Positions 3,774-49,465 of a DNA stretch of 49,587 nucleotides are shown here, one piece after another (within the stretch, counting starts at the first letter, position 1; the number at the start of each line of letters is the position of its first letter). The DNA is from Pseudomonadota bacterium (GTDB lineage: Bacteria; Desulfobacterota; QYQD01; JAZDGK01), in the NCBI GenBank assembly GCA_043806955.1, contig JAZDGK010000278.1:1-49587 (forward strand), in the 5' to 3' direction. The position numbers and the translations under genes were made by a program. The notes below the pieces were generated by a model that saw nothing but the letters and a program-made list of their open reading frames with translations, made no database searches and was not told where the DNA came from.

Positions 3774-3948
3774 AATTACTTCTCCGGCAAGGTAAAGATG
3801 ACGGCTTGGTACAGCTCCACATAAGAAGGTATCCATAATGCCACGGAGGATGCGCGTTCGCCAAGCAACAACCACCCCGCGCCCCTTATGATTCGGGGGA
3901 GAGGGCAGGGGATGGGACTTAACGTGGGGTGTGAGTTACGGAGGGGCC

Positions 3949-6536: not shown

Positions 6537-6780
6537 GTACAGCCCTCAAAAGGCCCTGAATCGACTACAAATCTGGATGACCTTTCTGAGCCTTCGTGTA
6601 TAATCGCACAGTGCAGCCTGACAGAAGATGTCCCCATTAAACCCGGACCTGGCGAAGCAACATCGTAGGGTGGGCTTTGCCCACCATCTTTGCTTTGGCC
6701 TTTTCGGGCAGGGATTCCGGTGGGCAGAGCCCACCCTACAAGTATGTCGATTCTGGGTAGTCATTTGTGTAGAGCTGTAC
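6537..6780. repeat. Element bounded by GTACAGCCCTC / GTAGAGCTGTAC, with an inner GTAGGGTGGGC palindrome
   Basis: The termini are inverted. The inner pair GTAGGGTGGGCTTTGCCCACC (6665-6685) and GGTGGGCAGAGCCCACCCTAC (6719-6739) is also inverted. Confidence 0.7.
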
Positions 6781-11040: not shown

Positions 11041-11252
11041 CCTAGGAGCCTGTCCGAGAACTGATGATCTACTGCGGAAAGCGGGATGACGGCCAGTATA
11101 AGTTTACCGTTATCCGTTTACCGTTGTCCGTAATATCACAAAAGAGTCTTTTCGGTGAACGGTGAACGGCTTTTATCCCTCAAATCCGTGAATATTTGGT
11201 CTCGTCCTCCGCTTTCCTCGCTACGATCCCAGTTCTCGGACAGACTCCTAGG
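11041..11252. repeat. Family A element variant with nested heptamer element
   Basis: The ends CCTAGGAGCCTGTCCGAG...GATGATCTACTGCGGAA and GAATATTTGGTCTCGTCCTCC...CGGACAGACTCCTAGG match family A. The centre is replaced by element 11103-11169. Confidence 0.7.
11103..11169. repeat. Heptamer-armed hairpin element (CCGTTCA arrays), short copy
   Basis: TTTACCGTTATCCGTTTACCGTTGTCCG faces TTCGGTGAACGGTGAACGG across about 20 nt. Nested inside a family A element. Confidence 0.8.
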
Positions 11253-15696: not shown

Positions 15697-15727
15697 AACG
15701 TTCACCATTGACCGTTATCCGTTCACC
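15697..15727 (+). repeat. Heptamer array, solo arm
   Basis: AACGTTCACCATTGACCGTTATCCGTTCACCG, lying 4 nt after the GH57 stop codon. Confidence 0.75.
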
Positions 15728-16014: not shown

Positions 16015-16176
16015 AGGAGCCTGTCGGACTTAGGGGATCGTCACGAGGAAGTGGAGGGACGAGACCAAATATTCACGAATTTGAGGCGCATAGTGTTGCT
16101 ATGCAACGAAAATTCGGGGATATTTGGGCCGTCTCCGCCACTTCCGCAGTAGATCATCCTAAGTCCGACAGGCTCT
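16015..16176 (+). repeat. Family A element (about 162 bp, TIR AGGAGCCTGTCGGACTTAGG)
   Basis: Bounded by AGGAGCCTGTCGGACTTAGG and CCTAAGTCCGACAGGCTC. Ends 15 nt upstream of the galT ATG. Confidence 0.88.
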
Positions 16177-16190
16177 CAGGAGGAGTAATC

Positions 16191-17186
16191 ATGCCGGAAT
16201 TACGTAAGGACCCGATAGTTGGACGGTGGGTCATCATTTCAAAGGAACGGGGCAAAAGGCCGTCTGATTTCATAGTGGAAAAAGAAGCAACCAAAGGCGG
16301 GTTCTGCCCGCTCTGCGCCGGAAACGAGAATACCACACCCAAAGAGGTCCTCGCCTATGGCCGCACCGGCGAGCCGGATACCGGGGGATGGACCGTGCGG
16401 GTTGTCCCTAACAAGTACCCCGCTCTAATGATAGAAGGGGACCTGGATAAAGAAGGAGAAGGCGTCTATGACAAGATGAACGGCATTGGCGCACACGAAG
16501 TAATAGTTGAGACTCCCAATCATGATGCCACACTGGCCCAGCTTCCGCCCGATGAAATCGTCCAGATCCTCTATGCATACCGCGACAGAATTGTCGATCT
16601 GGCCAGAGATTGTCGATTCAGATACGTAATGATATTCAAGAATTATGGGCAGTCGGCAGGGGCATCCCTGGAACACTCACATTCACAGCTCATAGCGCTT
16701 CCAGTCGTGCCCGAACTGGTTACCGAAGAGTTGCAGGGGGCCAAGACCTACTTCAACTATAAGGAGCGTTGTGTCTTCTGTGACATTATTCGTCAGGAAC
16801 TGACACAGGGAACGAGACTGGTTTGCGACAATCAGGACTTCGTCACAATAACCCCCTATGCTCCCCGTGCGCCGTTCGAAATGTGGGTGTTGCCCAAAAA
16901 GCACCGGTCGTCATATGTAGATATGACCGATGCTGAGTTTTATCAACTGGCAGAGATTTTTTCTGAGACTTTTCGGCGCTTGAATTCTGCAATTCAGCAT
17001 GTTCCGTATAATTATGTATTGCATACGAAACCTTTGAAAGAAGGATCATTGGAATACTTTCACTGGCATTTTGAAATAATGCCCAAGTTGACTATGATAG
17101 CCGGGTTCGAATGGGGTACGGGGTTCTATATTAATCCCATTCCTCCTGAAGATTCCGCCAAATTCCTGCGTGAACTGACAATTTAG
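16191..17186 (+). CDS. galT: Galactose-1-phosphate uridylyltransferase-like (GalT/HIT class) nucleotidyltransferase
   Basis: ORF track gives 16101..17186, but its first 30 codons are repeat-encoded. ATG 16191 is preceded by AGGAGG. Contains CPLC zinc-site cysteines and the active-site HSHSQ (HxHxQ). Confidence 0.85.
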   Translation: MPELRKDPIVGRWVIISKERGKRPSDFIVEKEATKGGFCPLCAGNENTTPKEVLAYGRTGEPDTGGWTVRVVPNKYPALMIEGDLDKEGEGVYDKMNGIGAHEVIVETPNHDATLAQLPPDEIVQILYAYRDRIVDLARDCRFRYVMIFKNYGQSAGASLEHSHSQLIALPVVPELVTEELQGAKTYFNYKERCVFCDIIRQELTQGTRLVCDNQDFVTITPYAPRAPFEMWVLPKKHRSSYVDMTDAEFYQLAEIFSETFRRLNSAIQHVPYNYVLHTKPLKEGSLEYFHWHFEIMPKLTMIAGFEWGTGFYINPIPPEDSAKFLRELTI

Positions 17187-17348
17187 GAGCCTGTCGGACT
17201 TAGGGATGATCTACTGCGGAAGTGGGGGGAACGGCCCAAATATCCCCGAATTTTCGTTGCATAGCAACACTATGCGCCTCAAATTCGCGAATATTTGGTC
17301 TCGTTCCTCCACTTCCTCGTGACGATCCCCTAAGTCCGACAGACTCCT
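17185..17348 (-). repeat. Family A element, inverted copy
   Basis: Reverse complement of 16015-16176 with about 7 differences by eye. Its first bases overlap the galT TAG stop. Confidence 0.88.
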
Positions 17349-19844: not shown

Positions 19845-19979
19845 GATGAATTCGCAAAAAAAGTCGTCACTCCGGTGAAAACCGGAGTCCAGATCCTCAG
19901 TAACCAGTTGAATAGACTGGATTCCGGCTTCCGCCGGAATGACAAAAGGTGGTACTTTCTGACCTCTTGCGAATTCATC
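19845..19979 (-). mobile_element. MITE family 1 copy (about 133 bp, TIR GATGARYTCGTAAAAAGTCG)
   Basis: Internal hairpins GTCACTCCGGTGAAAACCGGAGT and CATTCCGGCGGAAGCCGGAATC. This copy abuts another element and has no clear target-site duplication. Confidence 0.8.
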
Positions 19980-23763: not shown

Positions 23764-23931
23764 TAACCGTTCACCGTTATCCGTTGACCGTTGTCCGTAA
23801 GGACCTGAAAAGCGGCATCTTCGTAAATGCGCCGCAGGCGGATCGTGCTTTCCTTTGTTTGGCCGCCACTGTCCGTAACAACCGAGACAAACGTCTTTTT
23901 CGGTGAACGGCTAGCGGTCAACGGTGAACGT
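23764..23931. repeat. Heptamer-armed hairpin element between gspF and gspG
   Basis: Forward arm at 23764-23797 (CCGTTCA/CCGTTAT/CCGTTGA/CCGTTGT units). Inverted arm at 23900-23931 (CGGTGAACGGCTAGCGGTCAACGGTGAACG). Confidence 0.85.
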
Positions 23932-23974
23932 TTACTCATAGTGCATAGCGATTTCGTGATGGGAGTGAGGAGAG

Positions 23975-24412: not shown

Positions 24413-24442
24413 CCCGGGGCATAGGAGCCTGTCGGACTTGGG

Positions 24443-24748
24443 AGTTTCAATCATACCATTTTCGGATCAATGTCCAATGCTCAATTACCAAGTTCCAATC
24501 AGGAGCAAACACCTTGGACATTGAACATTGAGTGTTGGTAACAGTTTAGCCTTTTGAAAAACTGGCTAAACTTGAACTCAAAGTGCAAATTTCAAAATTT
24601 AAAGGATTTGTTTCGAGATCTTGTATTTTTCATTCTGCATGGAGATTTAGCGCGTTTTTGCAAAGCGCTAAATTGTTGCGAGTATTGGACATTCGATATT
24701 GGAAATTGGCCTATGCGAGGATATCAGCATTTTCCACGTCCCTGAGAG
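24443..24748 (-). repeat. Family F element carrying a nested ~140-bp element (24539-24679, TIR GTAACAGTTTAGC / GCTAAATTGTTGC)
   Basis: Fills the gspG-gspH intergenic gap. The nested insert is absent from the copy at 29-176. Confidence 0.7.
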
Positions 24749-24751
24749 CTC

Positions 24752-25216
24752 ATGCATAACATGCTCAATTCAAAAAAAGGGTTTTCCCTGCTGGAGCTCC
24801 TGGTCGTTCTCGTCATAATCGGGCTTGCCGCCATGGTGACTTTTCCGGCGCTGGCAAAGGGTCTGAGCACTGTCAGACTGAAGGCTTCAGTCAGAGAGGT
24901 AGCGGCCGTTCTCAGGGAGGCACGCAGTCTTGCGGTCTCGAAATGCGAGCACCAGGTGCTGAACATTGATATGGACGAGGGAAAATTCTGGCTCAATGAC
25001 GATGAATCTCACGTTCACGAATTGCCTCCTGACGTGCGGTTTTTGAGCGTGCAGGTCCAGGGATCCGAATTCAAGGAAGGAAAGCCGGCAATAACTTTCT
25101 ATCCAATCGGGAACTCGAGCGGCGGAACTATTACCGTTGGCGGAGACCAGAAGGTCAAGGGAAGGATTGAAGCCGGACTGGTCACCGGCATAGTTGAGGT
25201 TTCCTTTGAAGACTAA
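24752..25216 (+). CDS. gspH: Minor pseudopilin GspH-like
   Basis: Prepilin signal KKG/FSLLELLVVL and the GspH/FimT-like pattern (ITFYPIGNSSGGTITV). Confidence 0.8.
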   Translation: MHNMLNSKKGFSLLELLVVLVIIGLAAMVTFPALAKGLSTVRLKASVREVAAVLREARSLAVSKCEHQVLNIDMDEGKFWLNDDESHVHELPPDVRFLSVQVQGSEFKEGKPAITFYPIGNSSGGTITVGGDQKVKGRIEAGLVTGIVEVSFED

Positions 25217-25829
25217 GTACAGTTCCACAGAACAAGGTATCCATTTTGTTGTACTCGGGAGACGGGTATGCCTTCTTTCGGCCCTTCGGATAGGCGGTCC
25301 TTTCCAGGGCCGCCCGGCGACCGAGGCGTCCATTGTGGGCGGGGTTAGAAAACCCCGCCTATCCGCGTCTCGTGGAACCCATTTTGGACACCCATTTGCG
25401 TGGAGCTGTACTAGGAATCCGGAACGGGGTTTTACCCTTTTGGAAGTTCTGGTCTCGGTAGCTATTCTGGGGATTGCGCTGACCTTTTTGATACAACTTT
25501 TTTCAGGCGGGCTGACGTGTGCCGATAGATCAGGTGAATATACACAAGCAATACTTTACGCCCGTGAAAAAATGGGCGAGCTTACTGCAAAAAATGACCT
25601 CTCCGAAGGGGAGGACGAGGGCGAGTTTGACAGCAGGTACAAGTGGCGGGCTCAGGTTTTGCGCTCTAAGCTGATGGACGAAGAGGACTATAAGGACCTG
25701 CCGGTGGATGCTTACGAAATAGATCTCAGGGTATTGTGGTCCAGCGGCGACAAAGAGCGCCAAATAGGGCTCGAAGGCTTTAGAGTGATACCCAAGTCGG
25801 TTTCGGCGGCCCTGACAGGCACGGAATAA
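25194..25829 (+). CDS. gspI: Minor pseudopilin GspI-like with abnormally long, repeat-encoded leader
   Basis: The pseudopilin body starts at RG/FTLLEVLVSVAILG (G at codon 79). In-frame starts are only TTG 25194 and GTG 25335. Codons ~9-73 are encoded by the inverted-repeat element 25217-25411. Confidence 0.7.
   Translation: MRFPLKTKYSSTEQGIHFVVLGRRVCLLSALRIGGPFQGRPATEASIVGGVRKPRLSASRGTHFGHPFAWSCTRNPERGFTLLEVLVSVAILGIALTFLIQLFSGGLTCADRSGEYTQAILYAREKMGELTAKNDLSEGEDEGEFDSRYKWRAQVLRSKLMDEEDYKDLPVDAYEIDLRVLWSSGDKERQIGLEGFRVIPKSVSAALTGTE
25217..25411. repeat. Element bounded by GTACAGTTCCAC / GTGGAGCTGTAC, inside the gspI leader
   Basis: 195 bp. Its termini match those of 6537-6780. Internal hairpins include GGCGGTCCTTTCCAGGGCCGCC and GGGCGGGGTTAGAAAACCCCGCC. 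Confidence 0.75.
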
Positions 25830-25837
25830 TCATAGGT

Positions 25838-25859
25838 GTTCACCGTTGACCGTTCACCG
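25838..25859 (+). repeat. Heptamer array, solo arm between gspI and gspJ
   Basis: GTTCACCGTTGACCGTTCACCG, ending 6 nt before the gspJ ATG. Confidence 0.8.
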
Positions 25860-25865
25860 AAAAAG

Positions 25866-26498
25866 ATGCGAAATAGTCGCGGGTTTACACTGCTCGAAGT
25901 CCTGGTTGCCTTGACCATTTTTGGGATCGTAGTTGTCATTATCTTTGGTTCCTTAAATCTGGCGGTCAGGGCGTGGGAGCGAGGTGAAAGCGCCGCGGAG
26001 CGGAACCAGGAGACGAGGATTGTCGCGGACCTTATAGAGCAGCAGGTGAGATCGACGTACCCGTACTATTTTAGAGAAGGAAACGAAGAGACGCCGGCTT
26101 TCAGGGGAGAGCGTCAATCCGTCAGATTCATCTCCACAGTAGGGCTCACTTCCGGGGATGTTGTGGGCCTCGCCTTTGTCTCCTATTTCGTCCAGCCCGG
26201 AAAAGGGCTTATGCTTTGCGAAAAGCGTGTCTTCTCAAAAAAGGTGTTCGAGGAAACGTCGAGTCTAAGAGAAGAGAGCGTTCTCTTGAGCTCGTCCGCC
26301 TCGGAGGTCTCTTTCGAGTACGAGACTGAAGACGGGGAGTGGAAGGAATCCTGGGACATTAAAGAGATGCTGGTCTTCCCCCGATCAATAAGAATAACCC
26401 TGGAATTCTCAAAGGACGAGTCGGGCGAAAAAGAGACGGCTAGACTTAGTATTCCGCTCGTGGCAAAGGGGTTCCGGCAACACGGCTTGCCGGGGTGA
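25866..26498 (+). CDS. gspJ: Minor pseudopilin GspJ-like
   Basis: ORF track gives 25836..26498. ATG 25866 gives MRNSRG/FTLLEVLVALTIFG. The upstream codons of the longer ORF are heptamer-repeat DNA. Confidence 0.8.
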   Translation: MRNSRGFTLLEVLVALTIFGIVVVIIFGSLNLAVRAWERGESAAERNQETRIVADLIEQQVRSTYPYYFREGNEETPAFRGERQSVRFISTVGLTSGDVVGLAFVSYFVQPGKGLMLCEKRVFSKKVFEETSSLREESVLLSSSASEVSFEYETEDGEWKESWDIKEMLVFPRSIRITLEFSKDESGEKETARLSIPLVAKGFRQHGLPG

Positions 26499-26509
26499 TG
26501 CCGGCGTAA

Positions 26510-26704
26510 GCGTTCACCGTTCACCGTTGACCGAAAAAGACGTTGGTCGTGCTTTTCACGTACAACGGTGGTCGAATAACAGAAAATGCGTTCACCGTTT
26601 ATGGAGGAAGATCTCCACGTTTTTTGGGGACGACCGTGAATGGACAACGGAAAAAACGCTCTTCAGGTTCTTACGGACGCCGGTGAACGGATAACGGTGA
26701 ACGG
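26510..26704. repeat. Heptamer-armed hairpin element between gspJ and gspK
   Basis: Forward arm at 26510-26532 and inverted arm at 26680-26704. An extra partial arm lies at 26589-26603. The element ends 4 nt before the gspK ATG. Confidence 0.85.
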
Positions 26705-26708
26705 ATAC

Positions 26709-27665
26709 ATGCCGGCCTTGAAGAAAAATGGTATAGCATTAATAGCGGTGCTCTGGGTCATTGCGCTCTTGACCGTTATGGCGCTTGAGTTTTCGTATGC
26801 CATGCGTACGGAAGTGGATATATGGACCAATTATAAAGACGAGTTGAAAGGGTATTTTCTGGCCCGTGCAGGGGTGGAACGGGCCTTGCTGGAAATAACG
26901 CGATTCCACAAGACCGGGACGGCTGTTCTGGCTCAAGAAAACGGAGAAGAAGAAAAACCGGAGGAAGAGAACGAGTTATGGGTGCCGGACGGCAGTCCCC
27001 ACGAAGTCTCAATGAATGAAGGCGATTTTAAAGTAAGTGTTGAGGATGAGGGGGGAAAACTCAATATTAACCGCGCGTCGGAAGACGCCCTGAGAGATCT
27101 TATGGGAAATCTCGATATACCGCCTGAAGAGGCCGGCATAATTGCCGATTCGATCCTGGACTGGCGCGATCAGGACAATCTTCATCGCCTGAACGGTGCT
27201 GAAGATGACTATTATGCCGCCCTCCCGGACCCCTATGAATGCAAGGACGGGGAATTCGACGCCGTTGAGGAATTGCTCCTGGTGAAAGGCATTACACCGG
27301 AAATCTACAGGAAATTTGCCGACAAGCTCACGGTATATACGCAAAACGACACGATCAATGTGAATACGGCGTCCCCGGCCGTCTTGAGATGGGTGATTCC
27401 TGATAATCAGATAGTGGATCAGATTCTGGAGCAAAGACCTTTCCAGACTCCGCAGGAGTTACAGATCGTCAAAGGTGACACTACGACCCTGGCGCCGGTT
27501 GGAATAAGCTCTTCGAGCGGGTTTTATACTGTAAAGTCAACCGGTAGAATAAAGGGGAGCAAGATAGCGCGATCGGTGAAAGCGGTCGTCCAGATCAAGG
27601 GACCGGAGAGTTCGATTGTAACCTGGACGGACCGGTGGTGGGAGATAAAAGATAATGCTGCTTGA
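26709..27665 (+). CDS. gspK: Minor pseudopilin GspK-like
   Basis: ORF track gives 26640..27665. ATG 26709 gives MPALKKNGIALIAVLWVIALL. T2SSK features are present (DWRD, LLLVKGITPEIY, NVNTASPAVL). Confidence 0.82.
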   Translation: MPALKKNGIALIAVLWVIALLTVMALEFSYAMRTEVDIWTNYKDELKGYFLARAGVERALLEITRFHKTGTAVLAQENGEEEKPEEENELWVPDGSPHEVSMNEGDFKVSVEDEGGKLNINRASEDALRDLMGNLDIPPEEAGIIADSILDWRDQDNLHRLNGAEDDYYAALPDPYECKDGEFDAVEELLLVKGITPEIYRKFADKLTVYTQNDTINVNTASPAVLRWVIPDNQIVDQILEQRPFQTPQELQIVKGDTTTLAPVGISSSSGFYTVKSTGRIKGSKIARSVKAVVQIKGPESSIVTWTDRWWEIKDNAA

Positions 27666-29852: not shown

Positions 29853-30076
29853 AACCGTTCACCGTTAACCGTTCACCGTTCACCGTTATCCGTTCACCGT
29901 TCACCGCAAGAACCCGGACGGTGCGTCTTTGGTGGACAGCCATGTAGTCGTGCTTTCTTGACCGTTTGTTTGTACTTAACGGCATAAAGAAGATGAATAT
30001 GTCTTCGGTTATTGGCCGCTGTTGTTGCTGCAAACGGTTTTTTCGGTGAACGGTGAACAGTCAACGGTGAACGGTT
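29853..30076. repeat. Heptamer-armed hairpin element between gspM-like and gspC-like genes
   Basis: Forward arm at 29853-29907 has 7 consecutive CCGTTNN units. Inverted arm at 30044-30076. The spacer shares blocks with the 23.8-kb copy. Confidence 0.88.
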
Positions 30077-37206: not shown

Positions 37207-37283
<77 letters not shown>

Positions 37284-38414: not shown

Positions 38415-38548
38415 GATGAGCTCGTAAAAAGTCGAAAAGTACTGCTTTTGTGTCATTCCGGCGGAAGCCGGAATCCAGTCTATTCAAGTAGTTACGGGGG
38501 ATCTGGACTCCGGTTTTCACCGGAGTGACGACTTTCTACGAATTCATT
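38415..38548 (+). mobile_element. MITE family 1 copy with 7-bp target-site duplication
   Basis: Same sequence as the other family 1 copies. Flanked by ATACTGT at 38408-38414 and 38549-38555. Confidence 0.88.
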
Positions 38549-40478: not shown

Positions 40479-40575
40479 CTAGGCGCCCGTCGGACTTACC
40501 TGTCTGCGTGTCCGCACAGGCAGAAGGGATCGTCGCGAGGAAGTAGATCATCCCTAAGTCCGACAGGCTCCTGGG
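40479..40575. repeat. Family A element, short (about 97 bp) variant
   Basis: CTAGGCGCCCGTCGGACTTA ... CCCTAAGTCCGACAGGCTCCTGG. Solo termini of this family also occur at 1809-1829, 24422-24442 and 36997-37052. Confidence 0.7.
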
Positions 40576-40872: not shown

Positions 40873-41005
40873 GATGCATTCGTAAAAAGTCGTCACCCCG
40901 GTGAAAACCGGGGTCCATAGTGTGCTTAACTTATTGAAAATACTGGATTCCGGCTTTCGCCGGAATGACAAAAAACGAGGAATTTCGACTTTTTACGAGA
41001 CCATC
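40873..41005 (-). mobile_element. MITE family 1 copy with 6-bp target-site duplication, nested in another repeat
   Basis: Flanked by AGTATT at 40867-40872 and 41006-41011. Confidence 0.85.
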
Positions 41006-48915: not shown

Positions 48916-49465
48916 ATGAGAAGGCACGGTAAACTGGTTCTGTTGTTGGTTTGTTTGTTGAGTCTACTGATCGGGATTCCGATCTCGTACGGTGCAAAAA
49001 TGCCGAGGCTCGGATGGAAGGGGCCGAGGGTTGTGGGTCTGGAGAGACCGAGGGAATACAGAGAAGGCGAACTCTTGGTCAAGTTCAAGCGAGGAATCAG
49101 GCCGCGAGCCGCCTCTGCCTACCATGCCGGCATAGCCTCGGAGGTCAAACGGCGGTTTGCAAGAACCGGGATTGAGCATATAAAACTCAAGGCCGGTCTC
49201 AGCATGAAAGAGGCAATTGAACGCTACAGGAAAGATTCGAACGTAGAATATGTGGAGCCCAACTTTGATGAGTTCGTAAAAAGTCGAAAAGTACTGCTTT
49301 TTGTCATTCCGGCGGAAGCCGGAATCCAGTCTATTCAAGTAGTTACGGGGGAGCTGGACCCCGGTTTTCACCGGAGTGACGACTTTTTACGAGACCATCA
49401 ACTTTAGATTTCATATCTACGATATCCTGCCTGACAATTATAATGTTATGGGGGTATCGGGTTGA
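48916..49465 (+). pseudogene. Subtilisin-like (S8) protease gene remnant: signal peptide plus I9 propeptide, interrupted by a MITE and then terminated
   Basis: MRRHGKLVLLLVCLL signal peptide. The propeptide GELLVKFKRG...IEHIKLKAGLSMKEAIERYRKDSNVEYVEPNF is then interrupted by the 133-bp element 49267-49399, which is flanked by AACTTT duplications. The restored frame reads only 19 more codons before TGA. Confidence 0.6.
49267..49399 (+). mobile_element. MITE family 1 copy with 6-bp target-site duplication, inserted in the S8 protease gene
   Basis: Flanked by AACTTT at 49261-49266 and 49400-49405. Confidence 0.88.

What the first reader, a model, noticed from the sequence alone, without database searches (positions are those of the whole stretch)
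25194..25430. The gspI prepilin leader is interrupted in frame by a 195-bp inverted-repeat element
The pseudopilin body of GspI begins at RG/FTLLEV, with the Gly at codon 79 of the only ORF that contains it. That ORF starts at TTG 25194 and overlaps the gspH stop. Positions 25217-25411 are bounded by GTACAGTTCCAC and GTGGAGCTGTAC, the same termini as the intergenic element at 6537-6780. The segment is 195 bp (65 codons), has no stop codon in this frame and is rich in internal hairpins. Deleting it in silico joins MRFPLKT to RNPERG-FTLLEV, which is a canonical short basic prepilin leader. As it stands, the leader is 78 aa from TTG 25194, or 31 aa from the only other in-frame start, GTG 25335. 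The leaders of gspG, gspH and gspJ beside it are 6-11 aa. So a repeat element has been absorbed into the coding sequence of an essential pseudopilus tip subunit without breaking the frame. The gene may be made with a giant leader, may use an internal start, or may be silenced.
Basis: partly seen in the sequence, partly recalled or inferred. Interest (0 to 1): 0.7.

Follow-up and report, generated by a model that had tools for sequence, protein, structure and literature searches.

The report
Small transposon inside a pseudopilin leader
A 0.2-kb non-autonomous transposon (a MITE with IS630-type ends) has landed on the stop codon of gspH, which lies inside the overlapping start of gspI, so GspI's cleavable leader grows from 9 to 75 residues without a frame break; this is a clean example of a known kind of event, not a new system.

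Summary
Positions 25217-25411 are a 195-bp hairpin-rich element with inverted ends, sitting in frame and stop-free between gspI codon 3 and the RNPERG/FTLLEV prepilin cleavage site. An 82%-identical relative (L001) has the same operon with an empty site: gspH ends GAC-TAG and gspI starts at an overlapping TTG, giving the leader MTRKPEHG. The net insertion is 198 bp, which fits a TA duplication in CTAG.

The ancestral start is TTG 25206, not TTG 25194. GAGG plus 6 nt plus TTG is conserved in four orthologous loci. The leader is therefore now 75 aa; the reconstructed ancestor is MKTRNPERG.

The same about 26-nt termini bound 140-190-bp elements with unrelated interiors, and 1.25-kb insertion sequences encoding IS630-family transposases, in 31 public MAG and metagenome loci. 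So this is an IS630-type MITE.

The insertion regenerates the gspH stop (TAG to TAA) and leaves the gspI ribosome-binding site, start codon and cleavage site intact.

Most likely GspI is still translated through the element and the extra 66 residues are removed with the leader. This step is inferred, not shown. Loss or reduction of function, or use of the internal GTG 25335, cannot be excluded.

In-frame MITE fusions are well known, so interest is modest.

The parts
24752..25216 (+). gspH (154 aa). Its stop codon is now TAA 25214-25216: the TA comes from the target and the A is the base adjoining the element.
   Evidence: ORF. PF07963 and PF12019, XpsH/GspH models. The relative ends GAC TAG.
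25196..25199 (+). Shine-Dalgarno GAGG for gspI, lying inside the gspH codons GTT GAG GTT, 6 nt before TTG 25206.
   Evidence: (G)GAGG + 6 nt + TTG is conserved in L001, L035 and L036, and with CTG in L003.
25206..25829 (+). gspI as now encoded from the conserved start TTG 25206: 207 aa, made of a 75-aa leader and a 132-aa mature pseudopilin.
   Evidence: N_methyl motif at ORF residues 75-99, XpsI/GspI models below cut-off. Lies between gspH and gspJ.
25214..25215 (.). Left copy of the putative TA target duplication.
   Evidence: Filled site GAC-TA-A[GTACAG...CTGTAC]-TA-GG against empty site GAC-TA-G in L001. Full-length relatives are flanked C-TA...TA-G.
25217..25411 (+). MITE core (195 bp; 196 bp if A 25216 is counted). 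It encodes no transposase, and its interior is unique among the copies found.
25217..25242 (+). Left terminal inverted repeat GTACAGTTCCACAGAACAAGGTATCC.
   Evidence: Matches the pattern found in 31 public loci. 85-90% identical to ends in L020, L013, L034 and L024.
25386..25411 (-). Right terminal inverted repeat (reverse complement GTACAGCTCCACGCAAATGGGTGTCC).
   Evidence: 25/26 identical to the ends of IS630-family elements in L017, L028 and L031, and to two ~200-bp-plus hairpin-repeat elements that carry no transposase in the sequence read (L011, L018).
25293..25314 (+). Internal GC hairpin GGCGGTCCT/AGGGCCGCC.
   Evidence: MFE structure.
25338..25359 (+). Internal perfect hairpin GGCGGGGTT-AGAA-AACCCCGCC, immediately after GTG 25335.
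25323..25337 (+). Alternative internal start GTG 25335 with GAGG 25323-25326. This is the start chosen by the public gene call P0001 (164 aa, 32-aa leader).
25412..25413 (.). Right copy of the putative TA target duplication. With G 25414 it forms the original TAG.
25413..25448 (+). Intact prepilin-peptidase site: RNPERG (Gly codon 25428-25430) | FTLLEV (Phe 25431-25433; Glu +5 at 25443-25445).
   Evidence: PF07963 1.3e-08, TIGR02532.
6537..6780 (+). Older intergenic copy of the same family: good right end, decayed left end.
3809..3836 (+). Solo left terminus of the family (25/28 identical to 25217-25244). No right end was found.

Best explanation
What it is (confidence about 0.95). It is a non-autonomous miniature transposon (MITE) whose ends are those of an IS630-family insertion sequence. 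It inserted at the TA of the CTAG formed by the last gspH codon plus its stop (GAC TAG). In this clade gspI starts at a TTG 8 nt upstream of the gspH stop, so there is no intergenic DNA, and the insertion falls after gspI codon 3.

Shown:
- the empty site in a relative;
- the shared termini with transposase-bearing elements;
- a net gain of +198 bp, which equals 66 codons with no stop;
- the gspH stop regenerated as TAA;
- the gspI ribosome-binding site, TTG start and G/FTLLE cleavage site untouched.

How it most likely works (inferred, about 0.55). Ribosomes still initiate at TTG 25206, coupled to gspH termination, and read through the element. This makes a prepilin with a 75-residue, strongly basic, non-membrane leader. 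The leader stays on the cytoplasmic side, and the prepilin peptidase cuts after Gly as usual. The element-encoded 66 residues are discarded with the leader, and the mature GspI is unchanged. On this reading the leader is the one place in the protein where such an insertion is erased after translation, which is why it survived.
For: - **Empty and filled sites.** The relative's operon (GspI 82% identical, nucleotides about 82%) has the empty site. The alignment breaks at window 25209/25410.
- **Start codon.** GAGG/GGAGG + 6 nt + TTG is conserved in L001, L035 and L036, with CTG at the same position in L003.
- **Family.** The pattern GTACAGYTCCACNNAANNNGGTRTCC hits 6 GTDB MAG contigs and 25 metagenome contigs. 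Most hits are 136-190-bp elements with both ends and unrelated hairpin interiors. L010, L020, L028, L031 and L032 are 1251-1271-bp elements bounded by the termini. The L032 ORF hits NF033545 transpos_IS630 at 2.2e-49 (168 bits, cut-off 100). The L008 remnant hits DDE_3 at 4e-13.
- **Terminus identity.** The window's right end is 25/26 identical to the ends in L017, L028 and L031.
- **Target.** L010, L020 and L032 are flanked C-TA-[AGTACAG...CTGTACT]-TA-G. IS630 elements duplicate TA (PMC2170065).
- **Read-through.** There are 0 stops in the gspI frame. Shuffles are stop-free 9.5% of the time, and with a 1/3 chance for length this gives about 3% by chance. Core lengths in the family show no 3n bias: 5 of 13. 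The open frame therefore looks like a survivorship filter on this particular insertion.
- **Constraint.** dN/dS of mature gspI against L001 is 0.119, within the 0.05-0.20 range of the ten neighbouring T2SS genes. All of those are intact.
- **Leader properties.** The leader has 12 K/R against 3 D/E. Its maximum 19-residue hydropathy is 1.35, against 2.63 for the pilin helix.
- **Established biology.** Leaders are variable in length, stay cytoplasmic by the positive-inside rule, and are cut at the cytoplasmic face. The terminal Gly is the critical residue (PMC10191384, PMC4471445).
Against: - No expression, proteomic or processing data exist for this uncultured organism.
- A 75-aa leader is about three times the longest range described in the reviews read (6-26 aa, and about 15-30 aa for type IVb; PMC4471445). 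Nobody has shown that a peptidase accepts one.
- The element's 12-bp terminal stem starts 11 nt after the start codon, and the whole hairpin is very stable (-93 kcal/mol). It could hinder initiation or attract RNase III.
- dN/dS integrates over the whole divergence from L001 and cannot detect a recent loss of function.
- Two of the six frames of the element are stop-free, so the open frame is less improbable than for ordinary DNA.
- The insertion is seen on one contig only.
- The exact duplication (TA or a 3-bp TNA) is not resolved across the family. The flanks are T-N-A on both sides, and by my reading of the flank sequences printed, N is identical on the two sides in only about a third of complete copies.
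Confidence: 0.55

Rival explanations
1. Same MITE insertion, but it cripples gspI. Either the giant leader is not processed or inserted properly, or the stable hairpin blocks initiation or triggers mRNA cleavage that is polar on gspI-J-K. On this reading the locus is a recent, mildly deleterious or neutral hit on its way to becoming a pseudogene, and the open frame is luck.
For: The leader is far outside described lengths (PMC4471445). The hairpin of -93 kcal/mol begins 11 nt after the start codon. RNase III processing of MITE stems has been proposed elsewhere (PMC5896051). Two of six frames are open anyway. The insertion is on a single contig with no evidence of persistence. The same operon has taken at least four other small insertions relative to L001, so this lineage is under heavy MITE load.
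Against: The joint chance of a 3n length and no stop is only about 3-10%. The start, ribosome-binding site and cleavage site are all untouched. All eleven T2SS genes are intact with low dN/dS, which argues that the machine is in use. No terminator excess was found in the element.
Confidence: 0.27
2. GspI is made mainly from the internal start GTG 25335 supplied by the element, which has GAGG 8 nt upstream. This gives a 32-aa leader of type-IVb-like length that the peptidase can handle. The upstream reading frame would then be irrelevant.
For: The public gene call chose this start (P0001). GAGG 25323-25326 sits at a suitable spacing. A 32-aa leader is at the upper edge of described leader lengths, about 15-30 aa for type IVb (PMC4471445).
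Against: GTG and its GAGG are buried in predicted stems (unpaired probability 0.07 and 0.18), and a perfect 9-bp hairpin starts right after the GTG. The conserved, translationally coupled TTG 25206 is still present upstream in the same frame. This rival does not explain why 25217-25334 is also stop-free and why the total is 3n.
Confidence: 0.1
3. The element has been co-opted as a regulator. For example, its hairpin might tune the gspH:gspI-J-K ratio, or reversible excision might switch the pseudopilus tip on and off.
For: MITEs can act on expression of co-transcribed genes (PMC10969869). The position is exactly at the boundary between gspH and the tip-complex genes.
Against: The interior is unique and not conserved in any other locus. 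The relative works without it. There is no Rfam match and no promoter or terminator signal above chance. No transposase was found in the window.
Confidence: 0.05
4. Assembly artefact: a repeat fragment was wrongly assembled into the operon.
For: The window is a metagenomic contig, and the family has three copies in 49.6 kb.
Against: Both flanks are collinear with the relative's operon to the base. The junctions have the family's typical C-TA-A / TA-G flanks, and only about 26 nt are shared with the other copies. An artefact would not produce a precise TA-flanked complete element.
Confidence: 0.03

Closest known systems
IS630-type MITEs, e.g. MITEPlu5 of Photorhabdus luminescens (PMC6267812), and IS630/ISY100 transposition (PMC2170065)
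   Same: Short non-autonomous element whose inverted ends match those of IS630-family insertion sequences. TA target and duplication. Folds into a long hairpin.
   Different: The termini are different (GTACAGCTCCAC...), the hosts are uncultured MAGs of several phyla, and the interiors vary between copies. Flanks across the family read T-N-A, so the duplication is not settled. This family is not named anywhere I could search.
Rickettsia palindromic elements (RPE; Ogata et al. 2000, cited in PMC10969869 and PMC3184786)
   Same: Palindromic mobile element of 100-200 bp inserted in frame in a protein-coding gene, adding a peptide segment while the gene stays open.
   Different: RPEs do this systematically and sit in the mature protein. 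Here there is one copy in a gene, no 3n bias in the family (5 of 13), no sequence relation, and the added peptide lies in a segment that is normally cleaved off.
Coxiella QMITE1/2 (PMC5896051) and enterobacterial RU/ERIC ORF fusions (PMC2759123, PMC3184786)
   Same: MITEs that overlap gene ends, donate stop codons or extend ORFs in frame. A stable stem may be an RNase III substrate.
   Different: The fusions those papers describe at annotated functional genes are 3'-terminal extensions or donated stops; in-frame insertions in mid-ORF are reported only for hypothetical proteins (PMC5896051). Here the element donates the third base of the upstream stop and extends the 5' leader of the downstream overlapping gene.
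Chunjie MITE of Geobacter uraniireducens (Chen et al. 2008, as summarised in PMC3184786)
   Same: Recently active MITE with a very stable RNA fold (about -98 to -130 kcal/mol). Some copies overlap protein genes.
   Different: Chunjie is A+T-rich with 9-bp duplications and different ends. It is not IS630-type.
Long-leader type IV prepilins (type IVb, Flp; PMC4471445, PMC10191384)
   Same: Class III signal peptide with a hydrophilic, basic, cytoplasmic leader ending in Gly, removed by the prepilin peptidase.
   Different: Described leaders are 6-30 aa and evolved in place. This one is 75 aa, and 66 of those residues come from a transposon.

Membership tests
MITE derived from an IS630-family insertion sequence | Terminal inverted repeats | tested here: met
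   25217-25242 against 25386-25411: 11/12 in the outer 12 nt, 19/26 overall.
MITE derived from an IS630-family insertion sequence | Small size with no transposase gene | tested here: met
   195-196 bp. The only long frames are the gspI read-through and an antisense frame. tblastn with the L032 transposase finds nothing in the window.
MITE derived from an IS630-family insertion sequence | Ends shared with an autonomous element encoding the family's transposase | tested here: met
   The right end is 25/26 identical to the ends of the elements in L017, L028 and L031. L032 94-1353 is bounded by the same ends and hits NF033545 transpos_IS630 at 168 bits, above the cut-off of 100.
MITE derived from an IS630-family insertion sequence | TA target-site duplication | tested here: inconclusive
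   The window's filled and empty sites fit TA in CTAG, and the five full-length elements fit TA. Many MITE copies have TGA or TCA flanks, and N differs between the two sides, so TA against TNA is unresolved.
MITE derived from an IS630-family insertion sequence | Empty site in a related genome (evidence of mobility) | tested here: met
   L001 and L002 have GACTAG with no insert.
MITE derived from an IS630-family insertion sequence | Multiple copies in the same genome | tested here: inconclusive
   One intact and two decayed copies in 49.6 kb. The rest of the genome is not available, and the species is not among the GTDB representatives scanned.
GspI, T2SS minor pseudopilin | Class III signal peptide: G/F-x-x-x-E followed by a hydrophobic helix | tested here: met
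   PF07963 1.3e-08 and TIGR02532 4.9e-07 at ORF residues 75-99.
GspI, T2SS minor pseudopilin | Position between gspH and gspJ-gspK in a gspE-F-G-H-I-J-K...D operon | tested here: met
GspI, T2SS minor pseudopilin | Match to curated GspI/XpsI models above the cut-off | tested here: not met
   NF047828 XpsI scores 59.6 bits (cut-off 150). TIGR01707 gspI scores 29.7 bits (cut-off 44.35). These are the best-ranked families but below threshold. I call it GspI by synteny plus weak homology.
GspI, T2SS minor pseudopilin | Short hydrophilic leader | tested here: not met
   The leader is now 75 aa. The reconstructed ancestor is 9 aa and the relative has 8 aa.
RPE-like protein-coding palindromic elements | Family-wide tendency to insert in frame in ORFs, with length a multiple of 3 | tested here: not met
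   5 of 13 complete copies have 3n length. By eye, without ORF calls, the complete MITE-sized copies lie outside long ORFs or just after their stop codons.

The most novel reading that the evidence does not exclude
The MITE-bearing gspI is fully functional. If so, a prepilin peptidase accepts a 75-residue leader, about three times the described maximum. Cleavable class III leaders at overlapping gene junctions would then be 'safe harbours' where IS630-type MITEs that home to TAG/TAA stop codons can persist. The operon would show two independent solutions to inserting into overlapping genes: read-through plus cleavage at gspH/I, and start-codon duplication at gspJ/K.
Probability: 0.3. Interest if true: 0.5.

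Novelty: new member of a known kind. Interest (0 to 1): 0.35.

Why it matters
- It is a clean natural experiment on how much extra leader a prepilin peptidase and the SRP/Sec insertion route tolerate. The 66 foreign residues sit upstream of an intact cleavage site, and an isogenic-like empty allele exists in a relative.
- It shows how a TA/CTAG-seeking MITE can sit exactly on a stop codon, rebuild that stop, and still leave an overlapping downstream gene open.
- It has a practical annotation lesson. Gene callers mis-started gspI in this clade, at an internal GTG here and at internal ATG codons that truncate the GFTLLE motif in relatives, because the true start is a TTG (or CTG) overlapping gspH.
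- None of this changes current understanding of MITEs or of T2SS.

Tried and rejected
- **Rfam.** The gathering scan of the whole window found only a tRNA at 37210-37283. An E-value scan of 25100-25520 found nothing. The element is therefore not a known RNA family.
- **Promoter and terminator scan, 24700-25900.** It found 0 promoters and 1 weak terminator-like site, against 1.2 expected. No signal.
- **RNA accessibility of the two candidate starts.** Both are predicted to be largely paired, and so is the start in the insert-free relative. The result does not discriminate.
- **Target duplication.** I tried to settle it from 50 element ends. The flanks are C-T-N-A, and TA against TNA stays unresolved.
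- **Hidden start.** I looked for one just upstream of RNPERG, including near-cognate codons. None exists after 25337.
- **Other samples.** Exact-protein look-ups of the window's GspH and GspG, meant to find the same strain elsewhere, returned nothing.
- **Autonomous partner.** tblastn for a transposase in the window and in L001 found none.
- **Interior of the element.** blastn against all fetched loci matched the termini only.
- **GTACAG as 'G + TA + CAG'.** I considered reading it Tc1-style, with TA as the duplication. I rejected this because the G and the preceding A are conserved in nearly all copies, and the implied empty site would put a stop in gspI.
Full report
**1. The observation**

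The window reads ...GTT GAG GTT TCC TTT GAA GAC TAA | GTACAGTTCCAC ... GTGGAGCTGTAC | TAG GAA TCC GGA ACG GGG TTT TAC C....
- gspH (24752-25216) ends at TAA 25214-25216. The 195 bases 25217-25411 are bounded by inverted 12-mers with one mismatch.
- The only ORF containing the pseudopilin body runs from TTG 25194 to 25829. Its RG/FTLLEV site has the Gly at codon 79.
- The segment is hairpin-rich: a 29-nt imperfect and a 9-bp perfect inverted repeat, with an MFE of -93.4 kcal/mol and z = -6.5.
- The gspI frame has no stop across the element. Among the six frames, two are stop-free.

So the description is accurate.

**2. It is an insertion: the empty site**

A homology search with the whole ORF found 26 proteins. 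Only the window's own gene call (P0001, started at GTG 25335) covers any of the extra N-terminal sequence.
- The closest relative is P0002, 82% identical. It lies in a syntenic gspE-F-G-H-I-J-K-...-D operon on a 58-kb ENA contig (L001) and on a Logan contig (L002).
- There the junction is ...GTC GAG GTC TTC TTT GAC TAG AAA ACC GGA ACA TGG TTT TAC....
- blastn of the window against L001 is collinear. It breaks exactly at window 25209/25410 against L001 9962.
- Aligning the two gives an empty site GAC-TA-G(G/A)A, and a filled site GAC-TA-A[GTACAG...CTGTAC]-TA-GGA.
- The net gain is 198 bp, or 66 codons.

**3. The real start and the real leader**

In L001 the only in-frame start upstream of GFTLLE is a TTG that overlaps the gspH stop (TTGACTAG). 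It gives the leader MTRKPEHG.
- The arrangement (G)GAGG + 6 nt + TTG recurs in L035 and L036, and in L003 with CTG in place of TTG. The GAGG comes from the conserved Val-Glu-Val codons at the gspH C terminus.
- In the window the homologous codon is TTG 25206, with GAGG at 25196-25199.
- TTG 25194 corresponds to TCG in L001, so it is not conserved.
- The encoded precursor is therefore 207 aa with a 75-aa leader: MKT, then 66 inserted codons, then RNPERG. The reconstructed ancestor is MKTRNPERG|FTLLEV.
- No ATG, GTG, TTG, CTG or ATH codon lies in frame after GTG 25335.
- Gene callers mis-start this gene. P0002 and P0008 were called from an internal ATG that removes GFTLLE.

**4. What the element is**

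Inside the window, 3809-3836 shares 25/28 nt with the left end, and 6762-6780 shares 17/19 nt with the right end. The interiors are unrelated.

The pattern GTACAGYTCCACNNAANNNGGTRTCC gave two sets of hits.
- Six hits came from the GTDB representative genomes: Syntrophobacteraceae, 'delta proteobacterium', Chloroflexi and Nitrospinota MAGs.
- Twenty-five hits came from JGI metagenomes.

Reading them shows two kinds of element.
- Some are 136-190-bp elements with both termini and assorted GC-hairpin interiors.
- Others are 1251-1271-bp elements (L010, L020, L028, L031, L032) bounded by the same termini and filled with a transposase gene.

The transposase is of the IS630 family.
- The L032 ORFs hit NCBIfam transpos_IS630 at 2.2e-49 (168.5 bits, cut-off 100).
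- The L008 remnant hits Pfam DDE_3 at 4e-13 and transpos_IS630 at 1.3e-24.

The window's right terminus is 25/26 identical to the ends in L017, L028 and L031.

Neither the window nor L001 encodes such a transposase. Rfam has no match.

This is the definition of a MITE, here of IS630 type.

**5. Target and flanks**

IS630-family elements insert at TA and duplicate it (PMC2170065).
- L010, L020 and L032 are flanked C-TA-[AGTACAG...CTGTACT]-TA-G. L028 and L031 also fit a TA duplication.
- The window fits in the same way, and the relative's empty site is CTAG.
- Across all 50 ends the flank is nearly always C-T-N-A. TGA and TCA occur, and in my reading of the flank sequences the N matches on the two sides in only about a third of complete copies. 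I therefore leave TA against TNA open.
- Five ends, including this one, sit directly on the stop codon of an ORF of 150 codons or more. That is expected for an element that seeks TA within CTAG or TNA.
- Here the insertion rebuilt the gspH stop: TAG became TAA.

**6. Consequences and most likely mechanism**

Shown:
- gspH is unchanged.
- The gspI ribosome-binding site, start codon and first three codons are unchanged.
- The cleavage motif (Gly -1, Phe +1, Glu +5) is unchanged.
- The 66 added codons are open.

Inferred: translation proceeds from TTG 25206 through the element. The 75-aa leader has 12 K/R against 3 D/E and no membrane-like stretch (maximum hydropathy 1.35, against 2.63 for the pilin helix). 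It should stay cytoplasmic, and the peptidase should remove it.

This inference rests on established biology. Leaders are hydrophilic, variable in length, held inside by the positive-inside rule, and cut at the cytoplasmic face. The terminal Gly is the critical determinant (PMC10191384, PMC4471445).

Support for retained translation:
- The chance of a 3n length together with no stop is about 3%: 9.5% stop-free in shuffles, times 1/3 for length.
- The family as a whole shows no 3n bias, with 5 of 13 complete copies.
- All eleven T2SS genes are intact against L001. Their dN/dS values are 0.05-0.20, and gspI's is 0.119.

Caveats:
- The leader is about three times the described range.
- The hairpin begins 11 nt after the start codon.
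- dN/dS cannot see a recent loss of function.
- There is only one contig.

**7. Rivals**

| Rival | My estimate |
|---|---|
| Loss or reduction of function | about 0.27 |
| Internal start GTG 25335 with GAGG, giving a 32-aa leader | about 0.10 |
| Co-opted regulator | about 0.05 |
| Assembly artefact | about 0.03 |

The details, with evidence for and against each, are in the rivals section.

**8. Comparison and novelty**

In-frame MITE-ORF fusions are described as 'not unusual' (PMC10969869).
- RPEs in Rickettsia are the extreme case.
- QMITEs in Coxiella donate stops and C-terminal extensions (PMC5896051).
- IS630-type MITEs with TA duplications are known, for example MITEPlu5 (PMC6267812).

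I found no paper linking a MITE to a prepilin leader, and this terminus family is unnamed as far as I could search.

The finding is a new member of a known kind. Its neat twist is that the inserted peptide lies in a segment destined for removal.

**9. Context**

Relative to L001, the same operon carries other small insertions.
- One is a second MITE family whose ends are built of GTTCACC-like heptamers.
- A copy of that family split the gspJ/gspK GTGATG overlap. Its 8-bp duplication (ATGCCGGC) recreates the gspK start.

This lineage is under heavy MITE load, yet its T2SS genes stay open.

Noticed in passing
window 26497-26716 (also 23767-23945, 29855-30074, 11107-11169; solo arrays at 15712, 25843, 40364): A second MITE family has inverted ends built of tandem heptamers (GTTCACC/GTTGACC/GTTATCC), which translate as 'VNGERITVNGY' in spurious ORFs. 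One copy split the 4-nt gspJ/gspK overlap (empty site GGATGATGCCGGG in L001). Its 8-bp duplication ATGCCGGC leaves the gspJ TGA on the left and recreates the gspK ATG at 26709. The listed ORF from ATG 26640 is an over-extension into the element.
   Followed up: partly
window 16016-16176, 17186-17347; single ends at 1808-1826, 24424-24442, 40553-40571: A third MITE-like family of about 160 bp has ends GGAGCCTGTCGGACTTAGG / CCTAAGTCCGACAGGCTCC. The two complete copies are in opposite orientation. One end starts the roughly 320 bp of extra DNA between gspG and gspH, where L001 has only 19 nt.
   Followed up: partly
window 19859-19947, 38448-38535, 40885-40973, 49293-49387; L001 5772-5854 and 17876-17947: An ~80-bp repeat (75-82% identity) is present at four places in the window and at two places in the relative's contig. 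It is a repeat family shared by both genomes.
   Followed up: no
L001 9959-9961, L035 678-680, L036 1451-1453, L003 about 992-994; window 25206: In this clade gspI starts at a TTG overlapping the end of gspH, 6 nt after a (G)GAGG. In L003 the homologous codon is CTG, and no ATG, GTG or TTG is available upstream of GFTLLE. Public gene calls P0002 and P0008 start at an internal ATG and lose the cleavage motif.
   Followed up: partly
L021, L009, L027, L010, L006, L032 and window 25214-25216: Seven of 50 ends of this element family abut the stop codon of an open frame of 60 codons or more, and five of those frames are 150 codons or more. The family tends to dock on stop codons (TAA/TGA on one strand, TTA/TCA on the other). 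Chance expectation was only roughly estimated.
   Followed up: partly
L032 65-119: Two IS630-type element ends abut head to head, separated only by TAA (GTGGAGCTGTAC-TAA-GTACAGCTCCAC). Either one copy inserted at the TA flanking another, or this is a tandem or circle-type junction. The L032 transposase is also split over two frames (ORFs 183-506 and 142-1326), which could be a frameshift site or a sequencing error.
   Followed up: no
L037 1337-1500: A more distant relative (GspI P0007, 50% identical) has a 165-nt spacer with a GC-rich hairpin (CCCTCCCTCTCTGATGGGGGAGGG) between gspH and gspI, and gspI there has its own ATG. The same junction may have been expanded independently.
   Followed up: no
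L005, L007, L009, L014, L022, L025, L027, L029 interiors: Many family members from different MAGs carry the same interior module: CGTCATGCCCGCGAAGGCGGGCATCCAG...CTGGATTCCCGCC...GCATGCGGGAATGACG. The window's copy has a different interior. The termini appear to be combined with exchangeable hairpin cores.
   Followed up: no
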